Positions 404-55,173 of a DNA stretch of 64,000 nt are shown here, one piece after another. The position numbers and the translations under genes were made by a program. Below the pieces are notes generated by a model, which did no database searches, was not told the DNA's origin, and saw nothing but the letters and a program-made list of their open reading frames with translations. How positions within the stretch are numbered: the stretch's first letter is position 1; each line of letters begins with the position of its first letter. Origin of the DNA: Pseudomonadota bacterium (GTDB lineage Bacteria > Pseudomonadota > Alphaproteobacteria > UBA1280 > JAAZVW01); NCBI GenBank assembly GCA_018623135.1, contig JAAZVW010000004.1:746-64745 (forward strand), read 5' to 3'.

Positions 404-953
404 GCTTAAAAATCTTTGGGGTGTTGGGCTTGTTGCTGCCGCTTTTGCATTGTTTATTTATGCGCTTAATTACACGCCTGAATATAAAATACAAAAAATG
501 AAGCTTACTTTTTTGCCTGGGTTTCAGAGTATTGGGTTAAATTATTATTTACCACATAAAGATTTTTATACATCTGTCGATGATATTTTAAAGTCGGGTC
601 AGCCTGTGCTTTTAACAAAAAAAATAAGCCTATATAAAGACAATGTGAAACTAGAAGATGTGCAGCAGCTTTATTTATTAAGATTTAGCTTGCTTGATAA
701 CACCTATTTATTAACAGATAAACAAATAGATTTAACGGTGCCGATAAGCGCCAATGGTTTTGCGCAAGAGGTTTTGGGGGTGCATCGCCTATGGTTAAAA
801 GCTAAAATGGAAAAGATACAAGGGCAGTATCGTTTAGAAGTAGAGCATAGCATGAAACCTGTGACTGAAGATGATACCCTGCTTGCAAACTTATATATGT
901 GGCAGATGAGCCAAGCCTTTAAGGCGGAGGGAACTTATGAAGTACTGGACTAA
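387..953 (+). CDS. hypothetical single-pass membrane protein
   Basis: 188-aa ORF with an N-terminal TM helix (WGVGLVAAAFALFIYAL). It overlaps both neighbours by 17 nt in an operon-like way. No motif recognised. Confidence 0.5.
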   Translation: MLLLNKLKNLWGVGLVAAAFALFIYALNYTPEYKIQKMKLTFLPGFQSIGLNYYLPHKDFYTSVDDILKSGQPVLLTKKISLYKDNVKLEDVQQLYLLRFSLLDNTYLLTDKQIDLTVPISANGFAQEVLGVHRLWLKAKMEKIQGQYRLEVEHSMKPVTEDDTLLANLYMWQMSQAFKAEGTYEVLD

Positions 954-3081
954 AATACTAAAACCAAATGCAGGGCAGATACTATTAGCTTTAGGTTTGT
1001 TTGCTATTATTGTTGCTGGTTTGGTTGCGGCGGTAAGCTTAACGGATAAAGCTCATGCCGGCGTAAATTACTTTTTAATGCTAAACTTGTATGTGTTGTT
1101 AAGTTTAATTGCGCTTATTTATATTAGTCGTAAACTTATTTCTGCTTTTTTAGAGCGTAAAAAAGGGCTTGAGAAGGCGCGCTTGCATTTGCGCTTTTTG
1201 GGATTACTGAGCTTTTTTGCTGTGGTGCCTGTGGCTGTGGTTGCGGCGTTTTCTATTATTTTATTGAATTTGGGTGTTGAGTCGTGGTTTTCGGCTCGTG
1301 TAGCGAAGTCTTTAGATGGGTCGGTTGAAGTGGCGCAGGCTTACTTAAGTGAGCATGGCCAAAGGCTTATGGGTGAAGCTGAATATTTTGCAGGTTCGGA
1401 TCAGGTTAAAAAAGCACTCTTTTTTAGAGATTTGGAACAGCTTGGGTTTGTCTTTGAAGCTCAGATTAAACGCAAACAATTTGCAGAAGCTTCTGTTTAT
1501 ACAAAAAAAGGTGAAGTGGTTTTGCATTACGGTGCGCTAGCGCCATTGTTGCCTGAGCGATTTGCTGCTGCGATGCAGACAAGTTCTGATGAATCTGTTT
1601 TGCTGACAGATTATAAAGGCCAGCGCATGATTGTGATGACACCTATTAATCAAAACCTTTACATGGTTTTAAGTCGGTGGATTAGCCCGCAGGTGTTGGC
1701 GCATTTAGGGCGCACGCGTGAGGCCTATCAGGAATACTATGGGTTAAAATCTGAAGTCGGTGATTTGCGCTTGTTGCTAACGGCCTTTTTTGTAATGGTT
1801 GTTTTGGCTGTACTTGCAGGTGCTGTGTGGGCAGGGCTTAACCTTGCTAGCCGTATTGTGCGCCCCTTGGGCGAACTTGTTAAAGCAACGAAAAAAGTAC
1901 GTGAAGGTGATCTTTCTGTACGTGTGCAACCACGGGATGATGATGAGGTGGGGGTGCTTACAAGCTCGTTTAACTTAATGACTGAGCGTATGGGTAAAAA
2001 CCAAAAGCTTTTAGAACAAAAAAATAGAGAAATTGCAGACCGTCGTGAAATGACAGAAGCTGTGATGCAGGGTGTAACTGCAGGCGTAATGCGCCTAGAT
2101 GAAAACGGTATTGTGCGTATGGCTAATGCTAAAGCCGAAGAAATGTTTGGTGTAAAATGCGGCGAACATATTAATAAGTTTGATGATGCCTTGGCTGAGC
2201 TTTTTAAGACCTTTAAGAATAAAGGATCTAAAGATGTATTAGTAAACCAAACGCAAACCTTTATTGGTGAGAAAAAATGTACTTTGCAGGTGCGTATGAT
2301 GCCGCAAACGGTAAGACGTGATAAAAAAATCTCTGCTATTGTGACCTTTGATGATATCTCTGAGCTTCTTTCTGCACAGCGTGTAGCTGCTTGGGCGGAT
2401 GTGGCACAGCGCTTAGCGCATGAGATTAAAAATCCGTTAACGCCGATTCAACTTTCTACGGAGCGTTTAAAACGTAAATATCTTAAAGAAATCCCCGAGG
2501 CTGAACAGGAGCTCTTTAAGCAGCTAACAGACACAGTAACGCAGCAGGTTGAAGATATGCGCTCGATGTTAAATGAGTTTAGCGACTTTGCACGTATGCC
2601 GCAGGCGCAGTTTGAGCAGGTGGATGTTGTGAAGATAATTAAAGAAGTTGCATTATTGCAACAGACGGCATACCCTGAGTTAAAAATACAACAGGAACTT
2701 GAAACGGGCTTATTTTTGTTAGCTGATCGTACGCAAATCAGCAGAATGCTTACGAATTTGGTACAAAATGCCATTAATGCCATAGAAGAAAACCCCAATA
2801 AAAATAAAGCAGAAGGGGTAATAAAAATTGTTGCATATAAACAACAAAGTGGTAAAATTGCCATAAATGTAACAGATAACGGTCCTGGTTTCCCTCAAGA
2901 GGTGGATCTCGATACTTTGTTTGATCCTTATATTACAACACGTAAGAAAGGAACGGGCTTGGGTCTTGCTATTGTAAGGCGCGTGGTAGACGAGCATGAG
3001 GGGCAGGTACGCTTAGAACGACTGAAGCAAGGCGGCAGTCAGGTAACAATAACACTCCCTACGGAAGAAGAGGGCAAATAA
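937..3081 (+). CDS. ntrY: NtrY-type sensor histidine kinase (TM-HAMP-PAS-HisKA-HATPase)
   Basis: N-terminal TM helices, a HAMP-like segment, the H-box HEIKNPLTPI, an N box (NLVQNAINA) and G boxes (DNGPGF, GTGLGLAIV). It sits immediately upstream of ntrX. Confidence 0.85.
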   Translation: MKYWTKILKPNAGQILLALGLFAIIVAGLVAAVSLTDKAHAGVNYFLMLNLYVLLSLIALIYISRKLISAFLERKKGLEKARLHLRFLGLLSFFAVVPVAVVAAFSIILLNLGVESWFSARVAKSLDGSVEVAQAYLSEHGQRLMGEAEYFAGSDQVKKALFFRDLEQLGFVFEAQIKRKQFAEASVYTKKGEVVLHYGALAPLLPERFAAAMQTSSDESVLLTDYKGQRMIVMTPINQNLYMVLSRWISPQVLAHLGRTREAYQEYYGLKSEVGDLRLLLTAFFVMVVLAVLAGAVWAGLNLASRIVRPLGELVKATKKVREGDLSVRVQPRDDDEVGVLTSSFNLMTERMGKNQKLLEQKNREIADRREMTEAVMQGVTAGVMRLDENGIVRMANAKAEEMFGVKCGEHINKFDDALAELFKTFKNKGSKDVLVNQTQTFIGEKKCTLQVRMMPQTVRRDKKISAIVTFDDISELLSAQRVAAWADVAQRLAHEIKNPLTPIQLSTERLKRKYLKEIPEAEQELFKQLTDTVTQQVEDMRSMLNEFSDFARMPQAQFEQVDVVKIIKEVALLQQTAYPELKIQQELETGLFLLADRTQISRMLTNLVQNAINAIEENPNKNKAEGVIKIVAYKQQSGKIAINVTDNGPGFPQEVDLDTLFDPYITTRKKGTGLGLAIVRRVVDEHEGQVRLERLKQGGSQVTITLPTEEEGK

Positions 3082-3083
3082 AG

Positions 3084-4415
3084 ATGACAACACAAGATAT
3101 TCTAATCGTAGATGATGAGCAGTCGATTCGCGACGCCATGTCTGGTCTTTTACAAGACGAAGGTTATACAACACGCACAGCGGAGTCTGGTCAGCAAGCG
3201 CTAGATATGGTTGCCGAAAAAACTCCTGACTTGGTGCTGCTTGATATTTGGATGGAAGGCATGGACGGTTTAGAAGTGCTTTCTCGTTTAAAACGCCGTG
3301 TGCCTGAACTGCCAGTTGTGATGATTTCTGGCCATGGTACAATTGAAACGGCTGTGCAAGCGACAATGAAAGGTGCTTACGACTTTATTGAAAAGCCACC
3401 ACAAGCTGAGCGTTTGCTTTTAACAATTAGCCGCGCCATTCGTGAATTTCAGCTACGCCGTGAAAACGTGCTTTTACGTGCAAAAACAGGCGAACAAGAA
3501 GAGCTACTAGGTTCTTCATCTGAAATTGCGACTGTACGCCACATGGTGAAACAGGTTGCTGCTTCTGAAAGCCGTATTATGATTGCAGGCGAGCCTGGTT
3601 CTGGTAAAGAAGTTGTGGCGCGTTTGGTGCATCGTATGTCTGCACGTGCAGATAAAAACTTTATCTCTTTAAGCCCATCTTCTGTTGATGATACAACATT
3701 TGAGTTAGCACTTTGGGGTGCTGTAGACCAAGGTTTTGGTGGTACTTTGTTTATTGATGAAGTGGCTGACTTAACACCAAATATGCAAGGTCGTTTGTTG
3801 CGCTTTTTACAAGAGTCTTACATTGAAGACCCGAAAACAGGTGCACACAAAGAAATTAACTTACGCTTTATCTCATCTTCTAGCCAGGATATGAAAACGC
3901 TTGTAGAGACTGGCCAATTCCGTGCTGATTTATACTATCGTTTAAATGTTGTGCCAATTGATGTGCCTTCACTTCGTGAGCGTTCAGTAGATATTCCGGC
4001 GCTTGTGCAACACTTTATTAAAACACTTTCTCCTGAAGGTACTGAATTACCAGATGTGTCTTCAGCTGCGATGTCGGTTATTTCAAGCTATGTATGGCCT
4101 GGTAACGTGCGTCAGCTTAAAAACGTTATTGAGTGGTTAACAATTATGCACCCAGGTGAGACGATTGTACCTGAAATGCTACCTTCTGAGCTAACACGCA
4201 CAGAAAGTGAAACACACCAAGATGTACTAGAACAAGTGGCAACACTGCCTTTGCGTCAGGCGCGTGAAACTTTTGAAAAATGCTACCTTAAGAGCCAGCT
4301 AAAACGCTTTGGTGGTAACATTTCTCGTACTGCGCACTTTGTGGGTATGGAGCGTTCTGCATTGCACCGTAAGCTAAAATCTTTAGGTGTTGAGACACGT
4401 TCTGACGATATCTAA
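3084..4415 (+). CDS. ntrX: NtrX-type response regulator (REC + AAA+ lacking GAFTGA + Fis-type HTH)
   Basis: REC domain (DDE..D..LLDIWM), Walker A GEPGSGKE and Walker B LFIDEV. There is no GAFTGA loop, as is typical for NtrX. C-terminal HTH (GNISRTAHFVGMERSALHRKLK). Confidence 0.85.
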   Translation: MTTQDILIVDDEQSIRDAMSGLLQDEGYTTRTAESGQQALDMVAEKTPDLVLLDIWMEGMDGLEVLSRLKRRVPELPVVMISGHGTIETAVQATMKGAYDFIEKPPQAERLLLTISRAIREFQLRRENVLLRAKTGEQEELLGSSSEIATVRHMVKQVAASESRIMIAGEPGSGKEVVARLVHRMSARADKNFISLSPSSVDDTTFELALWGAVDQGFGGTLFIDEVADLTPNMQGRLLRFLQESYIEDPKTGAHKEINLRFISSSSQDMKTLVETGQFRADLYYRLNVVPIDVPSLRERSVDIPALVQHFIKTLSPEGTELPDVSSAAMSVISSYVWPGNVRQLKNVIEWLTIMHPGETIVPEMLPSELTRTESETHQDVLEQVATLPLRQARETFEKCYLKSQLKRFGGNISRTAHFVGMERSALHRKLKSLGVETRSDDI

Positions 4416-15289: not shown

Positions 15290-18241
15290 TTGAGTGTTGA
15301 TAAAAACATGATTCCGTGGCGGCTTTTTGTGCCCATCGTCTTTTTAATTGGTGCCAGTCTTTCTGTCTGGGGCAGTGCTTCCTTTACGCGTTCTTCTGAA
15401 AACTTATGGCAAGAAAAAATACGCTTAATTACAGCTAAACAGCTGTCTTCTGTGCATTCTAGATGGGCGGAGCTCGATGGCGTGATGCATTCATTGCAAG
15501 ATGTTGTTGCGGATGAAAAGGGTGTTGGACTAAATAGTTTTAATGCTGTTTCTAAAAGTGCTTTAAAGCGATTTGAATCTTTAGATAGTATGGCATTATA
15601 TGCTTTAGATAGAGCGAGTAGACCTTTATTAAGCCGCGGTAAAGAGGTGGTGCTTGCGGATAATTTTTGGCTGAAGCATAAAGAGATTTGGCGTAATAGA
15701 GGTGTTCCTGAAAATTTGACACTGGTAAAAGCGCAAAAAAATAGTAGCCTAGCCTTGTTCCCATTACGTTATCAGAATGAATTATATGCTGTTGTTTTAA
15801 GTTTTTCTTTAGAAGGGTTTATGAATAATGCTTGGGCTGACCCTGTGCTTAAAGGTATGGCTTTAGGTTATCAGGTTGAAGGATCGAATAATATTACAGC
15901 CGTTTATCGCAAAACACTAAAAGACCAGAAGGCCTTTGATTATAAGCAAAAAGTTTTTGTGGGCGGGCATCCGATTGATTTTATTTGGCAAATAAATGAT
16001 TCCCTTTTAGGTGGTGTAGACCGCATGATGGGGCATTTAATTTTGGCATTTGGTTTGATTTTTAGTGCCGCAGCTGCTCTTTTTGTTGCGCTTCAACAGC
16101 GACTTGCTGACCATATTAGGCAGCGTGTTATTGAAAGAACAGAAGAGCTTGAGCTGGCAGGGCGTAAGAATAAGCTTTTGATTAATAATGCTTTTGATAT
16201 GATCGCTATTTTGGACCTTTCTGGTAAAGTACAGTATGCGAATGCGGCTTTTAATCGTACGCTTTTTTATGCACGTGACCGCATGAAAGGCACAGATTTT
16301 AAAGAATATGTGCACCCTGAAGACCGTCATTTAGTGGAAAAAAGCCTTTCAGAATTAGCGCAAAATCATCCGTTTGAAGAAACGATGTTCCGCATGAAAA
16401 ACGAACGTGGTGGCTGGGTTTATGTTAAATCGGTCGCTAAAGCGTTATTTGATAAAGGGTTTCAGGAGCTTGATAGTATTGTTATTCATTTACATGATGT
16501 AACAGAGCAACTTAAATTCCAGCAGGAAATTTCGGCATCTAACGAGCGCTTTAAGGATTTTGCAGATTCATCATCTGACTGGTTGTGGGAAATTGATGAT
16601 AAGTTTAATTTCTCTTATGTTTCTCCGGGTATTACAGGGGTTTTAGGGTATTCCCCGAATGAAATGATTGGTGAGCCTTTTGCTGCGATGTTTACCCAAA
16701 ATGGTGAAGATGAAGGCACTAAAGTTTTGATTGAGACCTTGCTTGAGCGCAGACAGCCTTATCGTGATATTGAGTTTTGGACGCATTCTAAACAGGGTAA
16801 AGCTGTTTGTGTGCGTATTTCTGGTGTGCCTGTGCAGGATGTTGATGGTCATTTTATTGGTTTTAGGGGCGCTGCTTCTAACCAAACGGCAAGTAAAATT
16901 GATCGTGAAAATGTTCAGAAACTGGCAACAACAGACCAGTTGACAGGTTTATATAATAGGCATCGTTTTCAAGAAGAATTAGAACGCACTCTTGCGCTTG
17001 CACAGCGTCATGATGATTATGGTGTTCTTTTGTTGATTGATTTGGATCGTTTTAAAAATATTAACGATACTTATGGCCATGAAGCAGGTGATATTTACTT
17101 AAAAGCTGTTGCGGAAGTGTTTAAAATTACTTTACGTACAACAGATGTAATTTCTAGGCTTGGTGGTGATGAATTTGCTATTATTATGCATAACTTAACG
17201 CCTAAACAAGCACAGAAAAAAGTAAAAGAACTTATTGATAATATTAATGATTTACGTGTAAGTTACCGTGGGGCGATATTGCAGGCTTCTATGAGCGTGG
17301 GTATGGTGAGTTATCCGTTAGAAGGTAAAGATTCTAGCAGTATTGTAACGGCGGCTGATTTGGCCATGTATCGCGCCAAAGAAATGGGTCGAAACCGTGT
17401 TTTTGTGGATGATTCTGGTGATATTTCTGCAGGTGCTCAAGAAGCGCGCTTACAGCTTGAATGGCTAGACCGTTTACGTGATTCTTTAAATAATGATGAC
17501 TTTGAAGTGTTCTTCCAACCGATGATACCGACGCATGTGGAAGATATGCCGATTTATGAGAGCTTAATTCGTGTACGTGATGAAAGAGGTAAAATTGGTG
17601 AACCTTCATTATTTATTAAAGCGGCGGAACATTACGGTATTGTGCAGCAGTTGGATAGGCAAGTGATTCAGCGTGTGATTAAGCATTTAAGTGAACTTAA
17701 AGAACAACGTGGGTTAGAAGCAACGGCATCTATTAATATTTCGGGTATGTCTTTAGGGGTTCCTGAAATTTTGGTAAGTTTACGAGAAGGCTTAAGAAAA
17801 TACAAAAATGTTAACCCAAATAAAATTATTATTGAGGTAACAGAAACAGCTGCGGTGCGCTCTATGGAAGAGGCGCAAAGTTTTGTAAATGAGCTTAAAG
17901 AAATTGGCTGTAATTTTGCGTTAGATGATTTTGGTGTTGGTTTTTCTTCGTTTTCTTATATTAAACATTTAGATATTGATTATTTGAAGCTGGATGGCTC
18001 TTACATTCAACATTTGGATAAATCACGTGAAGATCAACTATTTGTGCAGTCGTTGGTGAGCTTGGCTAAAGGTTTAGGCATTAAAACCATTGCTGAATTT
18101 GTGGAAACAAAAGAGGTAATGGATTTACTTAAAGATTTTGGTGTGGATTATATACAAGGTTATTACATTAGTAAGGCACAGCCTGATTTACCTGATGTTT
18201 GTGGTCGATTTAATACCAAAAAAGCCATGGATTTTGCTTAA
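15290..18241 (+). CDS. membrane sensor diguanylate cyclase/phosphodiesterase (periplasmic domain-TM-PAS-PAS-GGDEF-EAL)
   Basis: RLGGDEFAI (GGDEF) and EAL-domain motifs (ESLIR, EVTE, DDFGVG, KLDGS). Two PAS-like segments and two TM helices are present. The start is TTG at 15290, with an alternative ATG at 15308. Confidence 0.9.
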   Translation: MSVDKNMIPWRLFVPIVFLIGASLSVWGSASFTRSSENLWQEKIRLITAKQLSSVHSRWAELDGVMHSLQDVVADEKGVGLNSFNAVSKSALKRFESLDSMALYALDRASRPLLSRGKEVVLADNFWLKHKEIWRNRGVPENLTLVKAQKNSSLALFPLRYQNELYAVVLSFSLEGFMNNAWADPVLKGMALGYQVEGSNNITAVYRKTLKDQKAFDYKQKVFVGGHPIDFIWQINDSLLGGVDRMMGHLILAFGLIFSAAAALFVALQQRLADHIRQRVIERTEELELAGRKNKLLINNAFDMIAILDLSGKVQYANAAFNRTLFYARDRMKGTDFKEYVHPEDRHLVEKSLSELAQNHPFEETMFRMKNERGGWVYVKSVAKALFDKGFQELDSIVIHLHDVTEQLKFQQEISASNERFKDFADSSSDWLWEIDDKFNFSYVSPGITGVLGYSPNEMIGEPFAAMFTQNGEDEGTKVLIETLLERRQPYRDIEFWTHSKQGKAVCVRISGVPVQDVDGHFIGFRGAASNQTASKIDRENVQKLATTDQLTGLYNRHRFQEELERTLALAQRHDDYGVLLLIDLDRFKNINDTYGHEAGDIYLKAVAEVFKITLRTTDVISRLGGDEFAIIMHNLTPKQAQKKVKELIDNINDLRVSYRGAILQASMSVGMVSYPLEGKDSSSIVTAADLAMYRAKEMGRNRVFVDDSGDISAGAQEARLQLEWLDRLRDSLNNDDFEVFFQPMIPTHVEDMPIYESLIRVRDERGKIGEPSLFIKAAEHYGIVQQLDRQVIQRVIKHLSELKEQRGLEATASINISGMSLGVPEILVSLREGLRKYKNVNPNKIIIEVTETAAVRSMEEAQSFVNELKEIGCNFALDDFGVGFSSFSYIKHLDIDYLKLDGSYIQHLDKSREDQLFVQSLVSLAKGLGIKTIAEFVETKEVMDLLKDFGVDYIQGYYISKAQPDLPDVCGRFNTKKAMDFA

Positions 18242-38989: not shown

Positions 38990-40942
38990 ATGAAATCCTT
39001 AAGTTTGTCGAAAAATATGCAAATTTTACAAGTTGTATCTTTATTAGCATTGCCTTTAGCAATGGCCTTTATTGTTCAAATGTTTATGACCTCTGTTGTT
39101 TATGCATGGGTAGCGGGTTGCCTAGGTTTAGCTATTGCTATTGGCTTATATGTTGTTACATCTAAAGGGGCCTCATCTTTACAGCGTGCTTGTAAGTATG
39201 CAGAGTCTTTAGCGGAAGATATGTCTAACTTTAGCGCAGTAACAAATAGAGGTGATGAAGGTACACGTATTTATAAAGCTCTTCAGGCATTATCTGAAGT
39301 TTCGGATGAAGGTGGTGCGTCTCAGGTAACAGATACTGATGCGAATTTATTACAGATGAAATCTGCTCTGCTTAATTCTTTACGTATGAATGTGATGGTA
39401 GCAGATGATAACGATAATCTTATTTTTGTAAATGATGCAAGTTATAATGCTTTTCATGAACTTGCAGATGATATTCGTGAGGTGTATAGCGAGTTTGACC
39501 CTGATAAAGCCATAGGTGCTTCAATTCATAATTTCCATAAAGACCCTGAAATTATTAAAAAAGTACTTCGCAATATGAAGGAAGGGGATATTCATAAGGC
39601 GCGTATTAAAGTTGGTACGCTTGTCTTTTCTTTAAATGTAGCGCCAATTTTTGTAAATGGTGAGCGTAAAGGTACTTTTGCTGAATGGGCAAATATTACA
39701 GAACAATTAGCATCAGAAGAGCAGGCAGAAAAAGTGCTTTCTTGCATTAAAGGCTTAAACTCTAACGTGATGATGGCAGACGAGGAAGATAATTTAGTAT
39801 TTGCAAACGATGCTTCTGTGCGTGCATTCCACCGTATTGCAGATGATATTCGTAAAGTATACCCGAAATTTGACCCTGAAAAGGTTATTGGTGCTTCAAT
39901 TCATAACTTCCATAAAGACCCTGATGCGATTAGAACAGTTCTGCACTCTCTTAAAGAAGGTGAAGTGCACAGAGCGGATATTAAAGTTGGTAGTTTAACA
40001 CTCTCATTAAATGTAGGTGGTGTATTTAGTAATGGTAAACGTATGGGTACTTTTGCAGAGTGGGCAGATGTGACACATCAACGTAAATCTGAACAAGAAA
40101 AAGTGCGTGTTGAAAACCAAATTGAGCATGCAGCAAAAGCCATTAATACGGCAACAAGAGATATTGCCCAAGGTAATACAAATCTTTCTGAACGTACAGA
40201 AGCGCAAGCCGCATCTATTGAAGAAACAACAGCTTCTATGCAACAAATTACAGAGCGTGTAAATAATAACGCTCAAAACTCGAAAGAAGCATTAACTTCT
40301 GCAAATGATACAAGGCAAGCAGCAGATAGAGGTGGTGAGGTTGTGCGTAGTGCGATTCAGGCGATGGGTGAAATTAGTGAATCATCATCTAAAATTAATG
40401 ATATTATTGGTGTTATTGATGAAATCGCCTTCCAAACAAACCTACTAGCGCTAAACGCCGCAGTGGAAGCCGCGCGTGCTGGAGAACAAGGTAGAGGCTT
40501 TGCGGTTGTTGCATCTGAAGTGCGTACATTAGCAGGTCGTTCATCCAAAGCTGCGAAAGAAATCAAATCTCTGATTACAGAATCTGTACAAAAAGTTAAA
40601 GCGGGTACAGAGCAAGTTAACCAAACAGGTTCATGCTTAAATGACATTATTAGCAACGTGACTAAAGTAACTGATATGGTTGGTGGTATTTCTGAGGCAT
40701 CTCAAGAACAAGCATTGAGTATTCAGGAAATTAACAAGACTATTGCTCAAATGGATACCTTTACACAGCAAAATGCCGCTTTAGTGGAAGAGGCTTCAGC
40801 AGCTTCTAAAGCATTAGAAGAACAGGCGGTTGGGTTAATCGATCTAATTTCAGAAACTGAAAGTACAGATGATATTAAAACCCCCGATATGGAAGAAATA
40901 AACAAACCATCTTCCGAAAATGTTGAGGTAAGAGAGTATTAA
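38990..40942 (+). CDS. methyl-accepting chemotaxis protein with two TM helices, tandem cytoplasmic PAS modules and an MCP signalling domain
   Basis: Signalling hairpin motif [36 protein letters not shown] hairpin-like TM pair leaves almost no periplasmic loop. Confidence 0.9.
39350..40081 (+). repeat. internal tandem duplication (two about 118-aa PAS-like modules, offset 378 nt)
   Basis: aa 121-238 and aa 247-364 align without gaps. Long DNA runs are identical (ggtgcttcaattcataa.ttccataaagaccctga). Confidence 0.85.
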
Positions 40943-50625: not shown

Positions 50626-50701
50626 GCGGGATTAGCTCAGTTGATAGAGCGCAACCTTGCCATGGTTGAGGTCGTGGGTTTGAGTCCCATATCCCGCTCC
50701 A
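50626..50701 (+). tRNA. tRNA-Gly (anticodon GCC), CCA encoded
   Basis: Manual cloverleaf: acceptor GCGGGAT, D arm GCTC/GAGC, anticodon stem CAACC/GGTTG with loop TTGCCAT, T arm GTGGG-TTTGAGT-CCCAT. It closely resembles E. coli tRNA-Gly(GCC). Confidence 0.95.
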
Positions 50702-50704
50702 AAA

Positions 50705-50733
50705 AAGCCAGTTCTTTATGAGCTGGCTTTTTT
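50705..50733 (+). terminator. Rho-independent terminator after the tRNA
   Basis: agccag/ctggct stem, T6. Confidence 0.6.
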
Positions 50734-50822
50734 GTTTAAAACTGGCTTTTTTATGTAAAGTCTTGTACAAAAGAAACAAATTAAGACAAATTATATTCTA
50801 TTTTAGTGTGAGGTAAATAACT

Positions 50823-52814
50823 ATGCATCCTGCTTATCGTGCTGATATTGATGGTTTACGCGCTTTTGCTGTTCTATCGGTTTTGATTTATCACTTGAAC
50901 AATAGTTGGTTATTGGGTGGTTTTGTAGGTGTAGATATCTTTTTTGTGATATCGGGTTATTTGATTACGACTATTATTTACAAAGAGGTTCAGTCGAGCT
51001 CTTTTTCTTTTGCTAATTTTTATGCCCGTCGTGTGCGCAGAATTTTCCCCGCCTTGTTTGCCATGCTTATAGTGGCTGCAGCTATTGCTATTATTGTGTT
51101 GCCGAGGGAAGAGTATTTATCCTTTTTTAAAGATTTAAAATTTGCTAGTGCGCAAATTAGTAATTTTAGATTTGCACGTGATATTGAGTATATGGAAGTA
51201 GGGGCAGAAGCATCGCCTTTATTGCATACTTGGTCTTTAGCCGTTGAAGAGCAATTTTACTTAGTATGGCCGCTTTTAATTGTGGGTGTTCTTAGCTTTG
51301 CTAAGCCTAAAGTATTAAAGATTTTTATGGTGGCGGTAGCTGTTATAAGTTTGATTCTTTGTGAATACTTTTTAACACATAATAACTTTAAACAAGCTTT
51401 TTACATGTTTTACAGCCGTGCTTATGAACTTATTATTGGTGCGATTATTGCCTTAGGTATGTTGCCGAAACTTAAAAACAAAACACAGGCGCATGCTGTT
51501 TCTACGTTAGGCTTTGTGTTGCTTGTAGGTTCTGTTTTATGCGTAAGGGGTGATAACTTCCCTGGGGTTATGTCGGTGTTTCCTGCTTTAGGGGCAGCAT
51601 TTATTATTTATGCAGGTAGAGAAGGTTGGTTTAACAAGCTACTCTCATTAAAAGCTGTGGTTTGGGTGGGGCTTATTTCTTACTCATTATACTTATGGCA
51701 TTGGCCGCTTATTGCTTTTACTACAAATGTAACAGGTGAAAGTTTAACCAATGTGCAAGCGGCGATTATTGCAGCTTTAAGTTTTGTATTTGCCTATCTT
51801 TCTTGGCGTTATGTTGAAAAACCATTTAGAAAGCCTTTATCTACTGGTACTAAAGGATTTTGGTTGCCACCACGTAAAACATTGTTAAAAGGCTTTTTTG
51901 CGATTGTTTTAATGGTGGTTGCTGGAAACTACGTAAAAACCCATTCAAATGTATTTGGTCGTAGTTTCCAAGATGAAAGGTTGATTAAAGCTTTTGCAAA
52001 ACCAAGCTTTAACTACATGAATTGTATTAAAGAGAATAAACCACACGAAGATAGAGATGACTTAGCGAAAGTACTGGCTTGTATTTTTACACCTGAAGTG
52101 CCTGAGGTTTTATTGGTGGGGGATTCTCATTCGCAGGCGATTGACCCACTTATTAAGGCGTGGGCAGAACAGCAGGGCTTGAGTTATCGTGGCATTGGTG
52201 TTTCTGGCAACCCAATGTATTTTGCAAAGTATGAAACAACAGAGCCTGAAGAAGTAGATGCGGAGTGGATTCGTACATCTGAAAAACTGATGAAAGAACT
52301 TCAAGGTTATATAGAGCAAGGTGGTATTAAGTATTTGTTTATTGCAAACAGGTATGATTATGCACTTATGCACAGGCTTTTTAGAGTTGAAGGTATGGAA
52401 GATGCCCCGCTTGAAAATATTTTACAGCATCTTTTGAAAGAAAATATTAAGGTTGCTGGTGGTTTTGATAAGACGCAAGTGATTATGCTTGGGCAAGCAC
52501 CTGTTTTAGAAGAAGGCCCATCGGTATGCTTGCAACGTATTGATAAGATACCTTTGTACCGCTGGTTTGGTAGTGAAACAGAATGCCCAGCTATTGTTGA
52601 GCATATGCAAGCAGATGAAATACAGGCTGTATCGGCTTTTATGAAAAAGCAAATGGCGTTAACAACCAATGTGCATTTGTTTGATTTGTACCCATTGTTC
52701 CCGAAAGTGTTTAATGATGAGGGATTGGTACTCTACCGAGATGATGACCATTTAAGTGTATATGGGGCATTAGAGGTGTTACCAGAGCTTACAGAATTTA
52801 TGAAAGATAAATAA
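50823..52814 (+). CDS. acyltransferase family 3 (OafA/YrhL-like) with C-terminal SGNH domain
   Basis: N-terminal YRADIDGLRAFAV..VI.H, about 10 TM helices and a C-terminal GDSH motif. Confidence 0.85.
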   Translation: MHPAYRADIDGLRAFAVLSVLIYHLNNSWLLGGFVGVDIFFVISGYLITTIIYKEVQSSSFSFANFYARRVRRIFPALFAMLIVAAAIAIIVLPREEYLSFFKDLKFASAQISNFRFARDIEYMEVGAEASPLLHTWSLAVEEQFYLVWPLLIVGVLSFAKPKVLKIFMVAVAVISLILCEYFLTHNNFKQAFYMFYSRAYELIIGAIIALGMLPKLKNKTQAHAVSTLGFVLLVGSVLCVRGDNFPGVMSVFPALGAAFIIYAGREGWFNKLLSLKAVVWVGLISYSLYLWHWPLIAFTTNVTGESLTNVQAAIIAALSFVFAYLSWRYVEKPFRKPLSTGTKGFWLPPRKTLLKGFFAIVLMVVAGNYVKTHSNVFGRSFQDERLIKAFAKPSFNYMNCIKENKPHEDRDDLAKVLACIFTPEVPEVLLVGDSHSQAIDPLIKAWAEQQGLSYRGIGVSGNPMYFAKYETTEPEEVDAEWIRTSEKLMKELQGYIEQGGIKYLFIANRYDYALMHRLFRVEGMEDAPLENILQHLLKENIKVAGGFDKTQVIMLGQAPVLEEGPSVCLQRIDKIPLYRWFGSETECPAIVEHMQADEIQAVSAFMKKQMALTTNVHLFDLYPLFPKVFNDEGLVLYRDDDHLSVYGALEVLPELTEFMKDK

Positions 52815-52847
52815 AAAAATCCCTGCTTTTAAAGCAGGGATTTTTTT
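52813..52847. terminator. bidirectional Rho-independent terminator
   Basis: A7 - atccctgc/gcagggat - T7, between convergent genes. Confidence 0.85.
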
Positions 52848-52856
52848 AGGCGGTTA

Positions 52857-53453
52857 TTACAGGCTACGTGGACCTCTGTAATAAAAGTTTGTGTTGAGGT
52901 AACGTACGGCACCTGTAAGAGGGTTACTGTCATCTATGGTTTCATCTAGGCGTTTGCTTAAAGATTCTGGCGTGTTGTCAAAATGAATCCAGTAATAACA
53001 GTTGCGACCTGTACAACCATCGTCGATAGGGTTGGCGGCTGCGCCATTACCACTTGCCATTCTATGAATGCGTAAAATGCCAAAATTAACAGATTCCACC
53101 TCATCTGATGCATTGAGTTTAACTTTAGAAATATATGGACCAACCCAATTGTTAGGGCGTGGGTCTAAAATACTATCGTCCATAAGGGCGCGGGCAATAT
53201 TAATGGGTATTTCTGCGGCTTGATCTTTTGCTGTTGCTTCAATAAAGAAAAGAATGCTGTTGCCCCAGCTTTCTTGCGCATTAGAAAGAATTGTTGAGAT
53301 GTTTTCTGACTGTTGTTCAAGCACAGCAGCACGAGAGCTTACACTACTTTGAAGCAAAGATACGCCTGAAACGACAGATAATGAGCCGACAATGGCTAAG
53401 GCGATACGGGCATCTAAACCAAAAAGGGCACCACGTTGTTTAAATAAATTCAT
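52857..53453 (-). CDS. pilin/pseudopilin-like protein, paralog 1 of 3 (non-canonical leader)
   Basis: 198 aa with leader MNLFKQRGALFGLDAR plus a hydrophobic helix, WVGPYI and a Cys pair C-x4-C-YYW. An aaggaaa SD is present. Confidence 0.6.
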   Translation of the reverse strand: MNLFKQRGALFGLDARIALAIVGSLSVVSGVSLLQSSVSSRAAVLEQQSENISTILSNAQESWGNSILFFIEATAKDQAAEIPINIARALMDDSILDPRPNNWVGPYISKVKLNASDEVESVNFGILRIHRMASGNGAAANPIDDGCTGRNCYYWIHFDNTPESLSKRLDETIDDSNPLTGAVRYLNTNFYYRGPRSL

Positions 53454-53471
53454 GTATCTTTCCTTAAAATA

Positions 53472-54068
53472 TTAACGTTTGATTGCAGAGGTAAGGCGCA
53501 CAGAAAGTATTGTTGGCCCTGTGCCAGACCATTGAATAACACCAGAGGATTTGGCGGTTGTTTCGGTGCCGTCTACCTGTTCGTTATATTTTTCTGTAAT
53601 GGCAAGGGGAACATCTGTGATTGTAAGCCAATAAAAGCATGGGTTTCTGTTTGTTGTTACGCAATTTGTTGCGCCATCATGTTCTTTAAATATAAGACCA
53701 ATATCACCAAAAAAACGGTGTTGTGCTTTGCCTGAATCTATGTTGTGAGGCTCTATATAAGGGCCAAGCCATTTTTTTTGGCGTGGTGTATCTAGGTAAG
53801 TATTGTCTAGCTCAAAAAGAGCGATGAAATTTTTACTGGCACTGCTGCTTGTTATGCTATGGATATTGTTGCCTAAATCATGCTGGATTGATTCAACCGC
53901 GTTGCGGTAGGTGTTAATATCTTTTGATAAGCCTGTTACTTTCGAGCTACTTAAAATACCGCCAACAGAAGCGCCTGCAACAACGGTGAGGCCGCTAAAA
54001 ATGGCGAGCATGAGTCGGGCATCTATACCAAAAAGGGCGCCGCGTTGTTGGTTAAGTAAAACTTGCAT
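53472..54068 (-). CDS. pilin/pseudopilin-like protein, paralog 2 of 3
   Basis: 198 aa with QQRGALFGIDAR plus a helix, WLGPYI and C-x7-C-FYW. The SD lies inside the end of paralog 3. Confidence 0.6.
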   Translation of the reverse strand: MQVLLNQQRGALFGIDARLMLAIFSGLTVVAGASVGGILSSSKVTGLSKDINTYRNAVESIQHDLGNNIHSITSSSASKNFIALFELDNTYLDTPRQKKWLGPYIEPHNIDSGKAQHRFFGDIGLIFKEHDGATNCVTTNRNPCFYWLTITDVPLAITEKYNEQVDGTETTAKSSGVIQWSGTGPTILSVRLTSAIKR

Positions 54069-54070
54069 GG

Positions 54071-54667
54071 TTAACCTCTTCTTTTTAGAGTTTTGTAATA
54101 AATAGTGCCTGTGCCTGTGTTGTAATGAAAGACGCCAGAAGATTCAGGAGTTGCTTCGTTAATAGCGCCATTGCGTTCATCTATAATTTTATTAACTTCG
54201 GGCATGTAGTCGACATCTACACCTGTAAGCTGAAGCCAAATAAAACAAGGATCTGTAAAGTCACAATCGCTTGTGTGGTCAGCCTTTTTTTCGATAAGGG
54301 AAAATGTGCCAAAGTCTTTATGTTGGTCAGATTCCATATTGAGGTAAGGGCCGAGCCATCTGCTTTGGAATCTTGACAAGACATAGTTATCTGAACCACT
54401 TGCAGGGAAGAGTAGGGCGTTGAATTCTTCTCCATCCTCTGTTGCTTGGAAAATCCATACGCGTAAATCTGTTTGCAGCTGAGCAATGGCGCCTTCCACG
54501 CTTCTGAGGTCTTTTGCTAAAGCTGCATAGCGTGCAGGGCCAATTTTTTGTACCAAGCTATAGCCACCTACAACAGAAAGGCCTGATAAAATGGCAAGGG
54601 TGATGCGGGCATCTAACCCAAACATGGCGCCACGTTGGCTGTTAAACAACTTTTTTATAAGCATCAT
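54071..54667 (-). CDS. pilin/pseudopilin-like protein, paralog 3 of 3
   Basis: 198 aa with SQRGAMFGLDAR plus a helix, WLGPYL and C-x5-C-FIW. It is separated from paralog 2 by 2 nt. Confidence 0.6.
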   Translation of the reverse strand: MMLIKKLFNSQRGAMFGLDARITLAILSGLSVVGGYSLVQKIGPARYAALAKDLRSVEGAIAQLQTDLRVWIFQATEDGEEFNALLFPASGSDNYVLSRFQSRWLGPYLNMESDQHKDFGTFSLIEKKADHTSDCDFTDPCFIWLQLTGVDVDYMPEVNKIIDERNGAINEATPESSGVFHYNTGTGTIYYKTLKRRG

Positions 54668-54700
54668 TAATTCTGCTCCGATATAACTACTCTTTAATAA

Positions 54701-54729
54701 AATATAAGGCGTTTAAACGCTTTTTACAA
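54701..54729 (-). promoter_or_regulatory. possible sigma70-like promoter of the pilin-like operon
   Basis: The minus strand reads TTGTAA-N17-TATATT. The spacer contains the perfect palindrome agcgtttaaacgct. Confidence 0.35.
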
Positions 54730-54747
54730 AGTTTGGCGAGGGGAAGA

Positions 54748-55173
54748 TTAAAAATCTAAACCGCTTGTTGCGCTATCTACAAGTTGTTCAAATACTGTAG
54801 GTTTATGGCCTTTAACTTCTGTAATTTGTTCTGAAGGTTTAATATTTACGCCTTCGTCTTCTGTTTTGCGACTGATATTTGTAAGGAGGTTTTCTTTTGA
54901 AAATTCTAGAACCACAAGCTGCCTTTTATCGAGTACGTTTTGATCTAGTGGTTTGTTGTATCTTGTTGTTGAAAGGTACATCCAGCTATTGCTATCAAAA
55001 GAGCTTTGGAACGATGGAGAGCCAAGCAGTTGAAGCACGTCTTGCTTAGAATGTTGACCTACTTTTAGCTTTGTGAGGCTTTCTTCTTTAAGCATGTAGC
55101 CTTGATCGTAATAATTTTTACTGCAAGCACTTAAAGAAAGTACGGCAAGAGAAAGAGCGATAAGCGATTTCAT
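54748..55173 (-). CDS. bamE: outer membrane assembly lipoprotein BamE (SmpA/OmlA)
   Basis: Lipobox LSAC and the GY..E..L..LKVGQHSKQDVLQLLGSPS motif. Confidence 0.75.
   Translation of the reverse strand: MKSLIALSLAVLSLSACSKNYYDQGYMLKEESLTKLKVGQHSKQDVLQLLGSPSFQSSFDSNSWMYLSTTRYNKPLDQNVLDKRQLVVLEFSKENLLTNISRKTEDEGVNIKPSEQITEVKGHKPTVFEQLVDSATSGLDF

What the first reader, a model, noticed from the sequence alone, without database searches (positions are those of the whole stretch)
52857..54729. Three tandem, equal-length (198 aa) pilin/pseudopilin-like paralogs with a non-canonical leader and no assembly machinery nearby
The three back-to-back minus-strand genes are separated by gaps of 2 and 18 nt. 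All three have a short basic leader, the invariant block QRGA[LM]FG[LI]DAR and a hydrophobic helix of about 20 aa. Each then has a globular part with W[VL]GPY[IL], which is reminiscent of the W-x-GPY motif of GspG-type major pseudopilins. Each also has a C-terminal Cys pair, C-x(4-7)-C-[FY]-x-W. The overall layout is that of a type IV pilin. However, the canonical prepilin motif G|F-T-L-I-E is replaced. If processing occurs after the Gly of QRG, the conserved acidic residue is an Asp at +6 followed by an Arg at +8, rather than Glu at +5. No PilB/C/D, GspD-O or Tad genes lie within the window. The operon sits between bamE and an OafA-type acyltransferase and appears to have its own promoter. 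This could be an undescribed pilin class or a divergent cell-surface fibre or secretion pseudopilus module.
Basis: partly seen in the sequence, partly recalled or inferred. Interest (0 to 1): 0.7.

Follow-up and report, generated by a model that had tools for sequence, protein, structure and literature searches.

The report
New pilin class, divergent type-IV-filament system
The three genes encode pilin-like fibre subunits with a previously undescribed processing signal, and their own divergent assembly machine and leader peptidase sit on another scaffold that most likely belongs to the same genome, which points to an uncharacterised branch of the type IV pilus / type II secretion superfamily in uncultured Alphaproteobacteria.

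Summary
Three 198-aa minus-strand genes (54071-54667, 53472-54068, 52857-53453) share QRGA[LM]FG[LI]DAR, a hydrophobic helix, W.GPY and a Cys pair. They are only 25-27% identical.

They belong to a large unannotated family of 1249 cluster representatives. Its N-terminus is nearly invariant: [KR]-[G/A] | A-M-F-G-L-D-A-R, with F+3, G+4, D+6 and R+8 in 149/149 sequences.

No Pfam or NCBIfam model matches the window proteins. Remote homology to the pseudopilin GspG is moderate: hhalign gives 84.5% probability, aligning QRG on QRG and D+6 on E+5, and 36/145 members hit Pfam T2SSG weakly. Foldseek found no structural neighbour.

The window holds no machinery. Scaffold_30 of the same assembly (tetranucleotide r=0.98 to the window) carries two more paralogs, a PilB/GspE-type ATPase, a GspF-like platform, three unrecognisable accessory proteins, three larger pilins with the same leader and a short A24 prepilin peptidase. 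The same operon occurs in five other uncultured genomes or metagenome contigs. No secretin lies within 10 kb.

In all 13 genomes examined the first pilin gene directly follows bamE.

Verdict: a new variant of the type IV filament kind. What the fibre does and how it leaves the cell are unknown.

The parts
54071..54667 (-). Paralog A ('A-type' pilin-like subunit, 198 aa). Leader MMLIKKLFNSQRG (13 aa), then AMFGLDAR and the hydrophobic helix.
   Evidence: ORF. Its orthologue is the first gene after bamE in all 13 genomes (NJ tree). AF2 full-length model has pLDDT 86 with helix 15-68 followed by a beta-sheet. The globular-domain model has pLDDT 95.
53472..54068 (-). Paralog B ('B-type' pilin-like subunit, 198 aa). 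Leader MQVLLNQQRG (10 aa), then ALFGIDAR.
   Evidence: It groups with the second gene after bamE in other genomes.
52857..53453 (-). Paralog C (an extra B-type duplicate, 198 aa). Leader MNLFKQRG (8 aa), then ALFGLDAR.
   Evidence: It clusters with B and with the second and third genes of L011. A near-identical protein, P0091, exists in another sample.
54605..54637 (-). Codons for QRGAMFGLDAR in paralog A, the putative prepilin-peptidase recognition and cleavage site (G|A).
   Evidence: DNA read. Family logo from 149 sequences.
54015..54047 (-). Codons for QRGALFGIDAR in paralog B.
   Evidence: The Leu codon is CTT, so it is not a start codon.
53406..53438 (-). Codons for QRGALFGLDAR in paralog C.
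54748..55173 (-). bamE (outer-membrane lipoprotein, 141 aa, lipobox LSAC). It is the conserved upstream neighbour and is probably co-transcribed with the pilin genes.
   Evidence: PF04355. bamE lies directly upstream of the pilin genes in 13 of 13 genomes. In 9 of them an ATG of the first pilin gene is -1 to +22 nt from the bamE stop; the gap is 80 nt in the window.
54668..54747 (-). bamE-paralog A intergenic region (80 nt). It holds one weak sigma-70-like match (54729-54701) and no terminator.
   Evidence: 4 promoter-like sites were found in the scanned region against 6.3 expected by chance.
52812..52848 (.). Strong hairpin flanked by A and T runs. It is the terminator of the pilin genes and is shared with the convergent acyltransferase gene.
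   Evidence: (17-bp stem) and the sequence.

Best explanation

Shown here:
- Each protein has a short basic leader ending in Q-R-G, a nearly invariant AMFGLDAR block and a hydrophobic segment of about 20 aa. That segment continues into a long predicted helix on a confidently predicted alpha/beta globular domain.
- The family is remotely homologous to GspG.
- Scaffold_30, which most probably belongs to the same genome, carries an operon with two further paralogs, a PilB/GspE-class assembly ATPase and a GspF/PilC-class platform. It also carries three unrecognisable accessory proteins. Their layouts are, by my reading of the sequences: about 365 aa with one central transmembrane segment, about 160 aa with an N-terminal transmembrane segment, and about 285 aa with a signal peptide.
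- The same operon has a 292-aa pilin-like protein with QRGAFSPFMFG and no Asp/Arg pair, two large pilins (319 and 341 aa) with GAMFSLDAR, and a 204-aa A24 aspartyl peptidase. The peptidase keeps both catalytic Asp residues. Pfam matches only its A24 peptidase domain and no methyltransferase domain.

Inferred:
- The preproteins insert into the inner membrane.
- The dedicated A24 peptidase cuts after the Gly (Ala in some relatives) at -1.
- The new N-terminus is probably not methylated.
- The ATPase and platform polymerise the subunits through their N-terminal helices.
- The buried Asp+6 and Arg+8 replace the canonical Glu+5 to N-terminus salt bridge, perhaps as an inter-subunit pair. This step is speculative.
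- The protein lacking Asp/Arg and the two large pilins would form a priming or tip complex, by analogy with GspK and the minor pilins.

Each genome keeps at least three ancient orthologous types of the ~195-aa subunit: A-type and B-type after bamE, and a third type next to the ATPase. This suggests non-redundant roles, for example a mixed filament or alternative filaments.

Whether the fibre is a surface pilus, a secretion piston or a periplasmic filament is not determined. No secretin was found near the machinery.
For: Family and motif:
- 1249 cluster representatives match at E<=1e-3.
- The N-terminal logo from 149 sequences has -2 R/K, -1 G140/A9, +1 A144, and F+3, G+4, D+6 and R+8 in 149/149.
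- The leader is translated.

Homology to GspG:
- hhalign of the family (A3) against canonical GspG (A9) gives 84.5% probability and E=7e-6 over 94 columns. QRG aligns on QRG, and D+6 aligns on E+5 with a one-residue insertion.
- Controls against unrelated alignments give 0.1-1.1%.
- Pfam T2SSG is the only recurrent hit: 36/145 members, best E=7.8e-6.
- The 331-aa operon pilin in L024 carries the same leader and passes the T2SSG gathering score, 22.6 against 21 bits.
- Five of the seven weak PDB profile hits are type IV pilins or GspG.

Structure:
- The full-length model has pLDDT 86, with helix 15-68 and then four beta-strands.
- The globular-domain model has pLDDT 95.1 and pTM 0.89.

Machinery:
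- The L024 operon holds T2SSE+MshEN, T2SSF, a T2SSG-like pilin and Peptidase_A24.
- It is conserved in L023 and L025, in L029 without the peptidase, and in L031.
- ATPase P0194 lies on scaffold_30 of the same ENA assembly as the window, ERZ23499266.
- That locus has GC 0.388 against 0.391 for the window, and tetranucleotide r=0.984. The window's own contig gives 0.993 and other genomes give <=0.92.
- The peptidases keep invariant Asp67 and GxGD Asp131.
- The ATPase clade is sharply delimited: 81 proteins at 66-94% identity, then a drop to about 30%. Its best models are PilB (262 bits) and GspE (244 bits), far below their cut-offs.

Orthogroups: NJ tree.
Against: - Foldseek found no significant structural neighbour for either model. 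The best pilin hit had E=1.8 for the full-length model, and the best hit of any kind had E=0.68 for the globular domain. The 'pilin fold' therefore rests on predicted topology and not on a structural match.
- Homology to GspG is only moderate. It drops to 36% probability when the N-terminal helix is removed.
- The three window proteins themselves hit no Pfam or NCBIfam model.
- The defining Glu+5 and the N_methyl motif are absent.
- No secretin lies within 10 kb of the machinery in L024, L028, L029 or L031, and none is in the window.
- Assigning scaffold_30 to the same organism rests on composition and on it being the same assembly, not on a closed genome.
- Cleavage, assembly and localisation are all untested.
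- All carriers are uncultured.
Confidence: 0.8

Rival explanations
1. They are orthodox type II secretion pseudopilins, that is, divergent GspG orthologues. They would form a periplasmic piston that pushes folded proteins through a GspD secretin encoded elsewhere in the genome.
For: - GspG is the closest detectable family.
- The operon has a single ATPase with the CxxC...CxxC motif of assembly ATPases, seen in the sequence, and no PilT-like retraction ATPase.
- By my reading of the sequences, the three accessory proteins have GspL-, GspM- and GspC-like membrane topologies.
- JGI and UniRef pipelines named a few members 'PulG' or 'Type II secretion system p...'.
Against: - No GspD secretin or recognisable GspC, L, M, H, I, J or K was found in or within 10 kb of the operon in four genomes.
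- Each genome has 5 to 10 or more major-type paralogs with variable globular domains. A T2SS normally has one GspG.
- The subunits are about 50 aa longer than GspG and carry a disulfide.
- The ATPase scores slightly better with PilB than with GspE, and far below both cut-offs.
- The GspG N_methyl/Glu+5 signature is absent.
Confidence: 0.12
2. They are not filament subunits. They would be signal-anchored periplasmic or envelope proteins that work with BamE in outer-membrane biogenesis, and the resemblance to pilins would be superficial.
For: - bamE lies immediately upstream in 13 of 13 genomes, although BamE itself is only 25-33% identical across them.
- In most genomes the distances are compatible with translational coupling.
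- There is no structural match to pilins.
Against: - Paralogs with the same invariant motif lie directly upstream of the TFF ATPase in L023, L024, L025 and L028.
- The larger operon pilins share the leader.
- A dedicated A24 peptidase is part of the operon.
- In the marine clade the arrays are not next to bamE.
- There is homology to GspG.
Confidence: 0.05
3. They form a Com-like or competence-type short pseudopilus for DNA uptake, or another periplasm-restricted filament that never crosses the outer membrane.
For: - No secretin lies near the machinery.
- The ATPase also matches ComGA (152 bits) and the platform matches ComGB.
- The peptidase is short and Pfam matches no methyltransferase domain in it.
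Against: - No ComEA, ComEC or DprA-type genes appear in any of the loci examined.
- The carriers have two membranes (BamA and BamE). Known DNA-uptake pili in such bacteria use a PilQ secretin.
- Many divergent major-type paralogs are not typical of Com systems.
Confidence: 0.08

Closest known systems
GspG/PulG, the major pseudopilin of the type II secretion system (Pfam PF08334 T2SSG, TIGR01710)
   Same: - Leader ending in Q-R-G.
- N-terminal hydrophobic helix that continues into a long alpha-1 helix.
- Alignable alpha-beta loop up to the W-x-G-P-Y / G-Y-I region (hhalign 84.5%).
- Encoded with a GspE-like ATPase and a GspF-like platform.
   Different: - The start is G|AMFGLDAR in place of G|FTLxE. 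There is a one-residue insertion, Asp+6/Arg+8 replace Glu+5, and there is no N_methyl motif.
- The mature protein is about 185 aa against about 135 aa for GspG.
- There is a conserved disulfide.
- Each genome has 5-10 paralogs.
- No GspD, C, L, M or H-K could be recognised.
- The window proteins fail the Pfam and TIGRFAM models.
Type IVa pilins (PilA) and the T4aP machine
   Same: - Class III-type signal.
- Conserved N-terminus with a variable globular domain.
- A Cys pair.
- Multiple pilin genes, with larger 'minor' pilins in the machine operon.
- PilB is the best-scoring ATPase model (262 bits; PDB PilF/PilB).
   Different: - No Phe+1 or Glu+5.
- The peptidase is 204 aa and Pfam matches only its A24 domain, whereas PilD (by general knowledge) also carries a methyltransferase domain.
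- No PilT, PilQ or PilMNOP could be recognised.
- Foldseek finds no match to solved T4 pilins.
Tad/Flp pili (type IVc)
   Same: - A short A24 peptidase in which only the peptidase domain is detected, like TadV/CpaA (by general knowledge).
- A non-canonical processing motif, with Ala commonly at +1.
- Occurrence in Alphaproteobacteria.
   Different: - Flp pilins are about 50-80 aa with G|xxxxEY. These subunits are about 195 aa with a globular domain.
- The ATPase belongs to the PilB/GspE class and not the TadA/CpaF class (TadA-family model E=2e-4 against PilB E=9e-78).
- There is one GspF-like platform and not a TadB/TadC pair.
- No RcpA secretin was found.
Mitochondrial T2SS-derived system (miT2SS) of jakobids and heteroloboseans
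   Same: - A reduced GspE/F/G-type set.
- A presumed alphaproteobacterial connection.
   Different: - Mitochondrial GspG keeps Glu at +5 and the canonical processing-site features (PMC8134430).
- It comes with a GspD homologue.
- Nothing links it specifically to the AMFGLDAR family.

Membership tests
Type IV pilin / class III signal peptide proteins (TFF subunits, broad sense) | Short, positively charged leader ending in a small residue (Gly, rarely Ala) at -1. | tested here: met
   The window leaders are 8-13 aa and end in QRG. Across the family, -2 is R/K and -1 is G140/A9 of 149, with a median leader of 11 aa.
Type IV pilin / class III signal peptide proteins (TFF subunits, broad sense) | Hydrophobic N-terminal helix of about 20 aa with an acidic residue at +5 (Glu5). 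| tested here: not met
   The hydrophobic helix is present. The acidic residue is Asp at +6 when counted from the Gly, followed by an invariant Arg at +8. hhalign aligns this Asp with Glu5 through a one-residue insertion.
Type IV pilin / class III signal peptide proteins (TFF subunits, broad sense) | Cleavage of the leader by an A24 prepilin peptidase. | not testable with these tools
   A dedicated A24 peptidase with both catalytic Asp residues is encoded in the operon. Cleavage itself is inferred.
Type IV pilin / class III signal peptide proteins (TFF subunits, broad sense) | 'Lollipop' fold: a long alpha-1 helix packed on an antiparallel beta-sheet. | tested here: inconclusive
   The AF2 models predict helix 15-68 and then four strands, with pLDDT 86 (full length) and 95 (globular domain). 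Foldseek gives no significant match to any solved pilin.
Type IV pilin / class III signal peptide proteins (TFF subunits, broad sense) | Genetic association with a PilB/GspE-family ATPase and a PilC/GspF-family platform. | tested here: met
   Paralogs lie directly upstream of the ATPase and platform in L023, L024, L025 and L028. L028 comes from the window's own assembly.
GspG (T2SS major pseudopilin; PF08334, TIGR01710, PF07963 N_methyl) | Score above the curated cut-offs of the T2SSG/GspG models and presence of the N_methyl motif. | tested here: not met
   The three window proteins hit none of these models at E<=10. Of 145 family members, 36 give sub-threshold T2SSG hits. By contrast, every full-length canonical GspG sequence fetched for comparison carries both PF07963 and PF08334.
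GspG (T2SS major pseudopilin; PF08334, TIGR01710, PF07963 N_methyl) | Encoded in a gsp cluster with the secretin GspD and with GspC, L, M and H-K. | tested here: not met
   No such genes could be recognised in the operon or within 10 kb of it in L024, L028, L029 or L031. The rest of those genomes could not be searched.
Tad/Flp pilins | Pilin of about 50-80 aa with a G|xxxxEY motif, a TadA/CpaF ATPase and a TadB/TadC platform. | tested here: not met
   The subunits are about 195 aa. The motif is AMFGLDAR. The ATPase is PilB/GspE-class.

The most novel reading that the evidence does not exclude
The AMFGLDAR proteins mark a previously unrecognised major branch of the type IV filament superfamily with these features:
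- Its own class III signal, [KR]-G|AMFGLDAR, in which an Asp+6/Arg+8 pair replaces the Glu+5 to N-terminus contact.
- A co-evolved short A24 peptidase.
- A sharply separate and highly conserved PilB/GspE-like ATPase clade.
- Three accessory proteins with no detectable homologues.
- At least three ancient subunit types per genome.
- No cognate secretin near the machine.
- A deeply conserved operon link between the first subunit gene and bamE.

The branch is widespread in uncultured Alphaproteobacteria, from 29% GC marine lineages to 63% GC MAGs from other sources. If the secretin is truly absent, the machine would have to cross or engage the outer membrane in a new way, possibly one connected with BAM.
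Probability: 0.5. Interest if true: 0.78.

Novelty: new variant of a known kind. Interest (0 to 1): 0.64.

Why it matters
Glu+5 and the G|F-T-L-I-E signature are treated as near-universal rules for how bacterial type IV pilins are recognised, processed and packed into filaments. Pfam, TIGRFAM and TXSScan-type tools depend on them. This family breaks that rule in a strictly conserved way, with F+3, G+4, D+6 and R+8 in 149/149 sequences, and it comes with its own peptidase. That offers a natural experiment on peptidase specificity and on how buried charges in the filament core are neutralised.

Current annotation misses both the subunits and three machine components. As a result, a whole surface or secretion apparatus of abundant uncultured Alphaproteobacteria, including small marine cells, is being overlooked.

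Two unexplained points could lead to new envelope biology: the missing secretin, and the conserved operon with bamE.

The practical limit is that all carriers are uncultured. Function must therefore be approached by heterologous expression or by enrichment.

Tried and rejected
1. RBS artefact or leaderless protein starting at the Met of MFGLDAR. Rejected: B and C have CTT (Leu) at that position, the QRGA codons vary synonymously, and each ORF has its own upstream ATG preceded by an SD-like sequence.

2. Direct family assignment. Pfam and NCBIfam give nothing for the three proteins.

3. Structural assignment. Foldseek against the PDB was run on the full-length model and on a pLDDT-95 globular-domain model. 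Nothing scored better than E=0.68, and the top hits are kinases and other noise. The fold is therefore neither placed in a non-pilin family nor confirmed as a pilin.

4. PDB sequence-profile searches with 24 and 145 sequences. Only sub-significant hits to GspG, TcpA and other pilins, plus a Cry6Aa helix match that I consider spurious.

5. Identifying the three accessory proteins (about 365, 160 and 285 aa). Pfam, NCBIfam and PDB profile searches found nothing. The GspL/M/C-like or PilMN/O/P-like roles are guessed from topology only.

6. Link to the mitochondrial T2SS. Rejected: mitochondrial GspG keeps Glu+5.

7. Literature. No paper contains 'MFGLDAR'. The TFF survey of Denise et al. 2019 (PMC6668835) does not mention Alphaproteobacteria in its main text and describes nothing resembling this system in the passages retrieved. 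A search on four MAG identifiers (UBA6503, UBA6156, OFTM141, SMAG_U6923) retrieved one paper listing UBA6156 as an uncultivated taxon, with no useful taxonomy.

8. Secretin. None was found in the window or in the +-10 kb flanks of four machinery loci.

9. The GTDB scan used only the pattern QRGA[ML]FGLD. It therefore missed the KKGAMFGLDAR clade, and the taxonomic range is underestimated.
Full report
**1. Observation**

The three back-to-back minus-strand ORFs exist exactly as described. A is at 54071-54667, B at 53472-54068 and C at 52857-53453. Each is 198 aa, and the gaps are 2 and 18 nt.

The proteins are 25-27% identical. They share an invariant Q-R-G-A-x-F-G-x-D-A-R, a hydrophobic stretch, W-x-G-P-Y and a Cys pair followed by [FY]-x-W.

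The DNA shows that the leader is translated. The QRGA codons differ synonymously between paralogs. B and C have CTT (Leu) where A has ATG, and each ORF has its own SD-like sequence and ATG.

bamE (PF04355) lies upstream, and a convergent Acyl_transf_3+SGNH acyltransferase lies downstream. A strong hairpin at 52848-52812 terminates both.

No Pfam or NCBIfam model matches any of the three proteins.

**2. The family**

A word-indexed search found only 25 relatives. All of them carry QRGAMFGLDARIALAIFG, and a few had been auto-named 'PulG' or 'Type II secretion system p...'.

An exhaustive profile search found 1249 cluster representatives at E<=1e-3, with 721 at <=1e-10.

The N-terminal logo from 149 sequences reads:
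- -3 Q/K/N and -2 R/K
- -1 G (140) or A (9)
- +1 A (144), otherwise M, V, L or G
- +2 M/L
- F+3, G+4, D+6 and R+8 in 149/149
- G at +22 in 143 of 149

The small-residue-only position is the Gly/Ala. The following position tolerates bulky residues. This is the pattern expected for -1 and +1 of a prepilin peptidase site, so cleavage at [KR]-G|A is the more likely option. Cleavage one residue later (GA|MFGLD) would restore an acidic +5 and cannot be excluded.

**3. Homology and structure**

Profile-profile comparison of 145 family members with 17 canonical GspG sequences gives 84.5% probability and E=7e-6 over 94 columns. QRG aligns on QRG, Asp+6 aligns on Glu+5 through a one-residue insertion, and W-x-GPY aligns on the G-Y-I region. 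Controls against unrelated alignments give 0.1-1.1%. With the N-terminal helix removed, the signal falls to 36%.

Pfam T2SSG is the only recurrent weak hit: 36/145 members, best E=7.8e-6. PDB sequence-profile hits are individually insignificant, but five of seven are GspG or type IV pilins.

AlphaFold gives a long helix (residues 15-68) followed by a four-stranded sheet, with pLDDT 86. A model of the globular domain alone has pLDDT 95.1 and pTM 0.89.

Foldseek against the PDB finds nothing significant for either model. The globular domain therefore has no close solved relative. It is not placed in any non-pilin family, but the pilin fold is not confirmed by structural matching either.

**4. 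The machinery exists, outside the window**

A GTDB scan with the motif found 20 loci in 14 uncultured genomes. Most are titled Alphaproteobacteria or Proteobacteria. Five loci carry Pseudomonas, Pseudomonadaceae or Pseudomonadales titles. Three of them share the same bamE-pilin core arrangement as the alphaproteobacterial loci, so I take those titles to be mislabels.

Six of these genomes have a second locus. In L023, L024 and L025 a family member lies directly upstream of an operon that encodes:
- a PilB/GspE-class ATPase (T2SSE+MshEN; PilB model 262 bits, GspE 244, both far below their cut-offs)
- a GspF-like platform
- three proteins without detectable homologues
- a pilin-like protein with QRGAVSPFLFG and no Asp/Arg pair
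- a 331-aa pilin with QRGAMFSMDAR, which passes the T2SSG gathering score
- a 204-aa Peptidase_A24

The peptidases keep both catalytic aspartates, AxD and GxGD. They are only about 204-219 aa long, and Pfam matches only the A24 domain.

The ATPase clade is sharply delimited, with 81 proteins at 66-94% identity and then a drop to about 30%.

One of these ATPases (P0194) lies on scaffold_30 of ENA assembly ERZ23499266. The window is scaffold_15 of the same assembly. The scaffold_30 locus has GC 0.388 against 0.391 for the window, and its tetranucleotide correlation with the window is 0.984. The window's own contig gives 0.993, and loci from other genomes give <=0.92.

The organism of the window therefore very probably carries the full operon. 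It comprises two more ~187-aa paralogs, the ATPase, the platform, proteins of 365, 160 and 285 aa, a 292-aa QRGAFSPFMFG protein, pilins of 319 and 341 aa with GAMFSLDAR, the A24 peptidase and a J-domain protein.

A 29%-GC contig with KKGAMFGLDAR-type pilins has the same operon. A 31%-GC contig with the same pilin type carries seven tandem paralogs with identical N-termini and divergent globular domains. One cluster of this clade includes a Tara Oceans sequence, so I take it to be a marine lineage.

**5. Context**

In all 13 genomes with the window-type locus, bamE is the immediate upstream gene, although BamE is only 25-33% identical across them. In 9 of them an ATG of the first pilin gene lies between -1 and +22 nt from the bamE stop. 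The window (80 nt) and L011 (75 nt) have the longest gaps; for two loci no ATG start could be placed.

The window's intergenic region has no terminator and only a chance-level promoter match. Co-transcription with bamE is therefore at least as likely as an independent promoter.

A neighbour-joining tree shows ancient orthologous groups:
- The gene right after bamE is always 'A-type'.
- The next gene is 'B-type'. Window B and C both belong here, and C is an extra duplicate.
- A third type sits next to the ATPase or as an orphan elsewhere.

No secretin is present in the window or within 10 kb of the machinery in L024, L028, L029 and L031.

**6. Interpretation**

The best-supported explanation is that A, B and C are filament subunits of a divergent TFF machine (confidence 0.8).

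The following steps are inferred by analogy and not shown:
- processing at G|A by the dedicated peptidase
- no N-methylation
- polymerisation by the ATPase and platform
- a priming or tip role for the pilin lacking Asp/Arg and for the large pilins

The idea that Asp+6 and Arg+8 pair between subunits in place of the Glu5 to N-terminus contact is speculation.

The function of the fibre is open, whether surface pilus, secretion piston or periplasmic filament. An orthodox T2SS is disfavoured for three reasons: many major-type paralogs, no recognisable GspD, C, L, M or H-K, and failure of the GspG models.

A BamE-linked, non-filament role is disfavoured for three reasons: paralogs lie next to the ATPase, the operon pilins share the leader, and there is a dedicated peptidase.

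**7. Novelty**

No paper in the library contains the motif. The main survey of TFF diversity does not mention Alphaproteobacteria in its main text, and nothing resembling this system appears in the passages retrieved. The mitochondrial T2SS-derived GspG keeps Glu+5 and is not this family.

I rate this a new variant of a known kind: a clear TFF-superfamily system with a new signal, a new subunit family and unrecognisable accessory components. It is interesting to pilus and secretion specialists. It is limited by being known only from uncultured genomes, and its function is unknown.

Noticed in passing
Family members P0022, P0102, P0106, P0112, P0128, P0130, P0132, P0148, P0152, P0158, P0162 and P0168 (not in the window): About a dozen relatives carry one or two extra, degenerate copies of the leader motif upstream of the real KRGAMFGLDAR, usually 20-45 aa away. 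An example is MLFTKKGAMFGLESRALKKQFGELFLARMQ... These could be mis-called starts over recombination remnants in tandem arrays, or real double leaders.
   Followed up: no
L026 10001-14205 (31% GC, 207-kb ENA contig): Seven tandem ~195-aa paralogs have identical first ~35 residues (KKGAMFGLDARIALAIFGALSVISGAALYSAIQ) and divergent globular domains. The last one is split into two ORFs. Three more paralogs lie at 1-1627 on the same contig. This array does not follow bamE.
   Followed up: partly
L028 18769-19320; L024 18586-19152; L025 18620-19168; L031 18991-19557: A ~185-aa protein with a C-terminal J domain and an N-terminal Cys-rich motif (C..P.C.E...FCLEHV) is conserved as the last gene of the machinery operon, right after the A24 peptidase. 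It could be a dedicated co-chaperone or simply a syntenic neighbour.
   Followed up: no
window 50626-52814: A tRNA-Gly(GCC) (50626-50701) and the OafA-type acyltransferase (50823-52814) lie between nusB and the pilin genes. In L011, L016 and L017 nusB directly abuts the pilin genes. The acyltransferase, with or without the tRNA, therefore looks like a lineage-specific insertion.
   Followed up: partly
window 54748-55173 and L004, L006 and L008-L017: bamE followed by the first pilin gene is conserved across genomes whose BamE is only 25-33% identical, often with overlapping or nearly abutting stop and start codons. This suggests selection for co-expression of an outer-membrane assembly lipoprotein with a filament subunit.
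   Followed up: partly
L021 15962-16606 and L029 (MAG BWSM_27): In this genome the system is scattered. The ATPase operon on contig 3 lacks the peptidase. An orphan A24 peptidase lies next to the CCA-adding enzyme, about 5.4 kb from an orphan pilin on contig 1.
   Followed up: partly
ATPase clade P0179-P0257: The ATPase is 66-94% identical across the whole clade, while the pilins it presumably assembles are only about 25-35% identical outside their N-terminal ~30 residues. The gap to the next ATPase relatives, at about 30% identity, is abrupt.
   Followed up: no
window 15290-18241 and 937-4415: The window also encodes a 983-aa PAS-GGDEF-EAL protein and an NtrY/NtrX two-component pair. An MCP lies at 38990-40942. 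These are ordinary regulatory genes, noted only as context.
   Followed up: no
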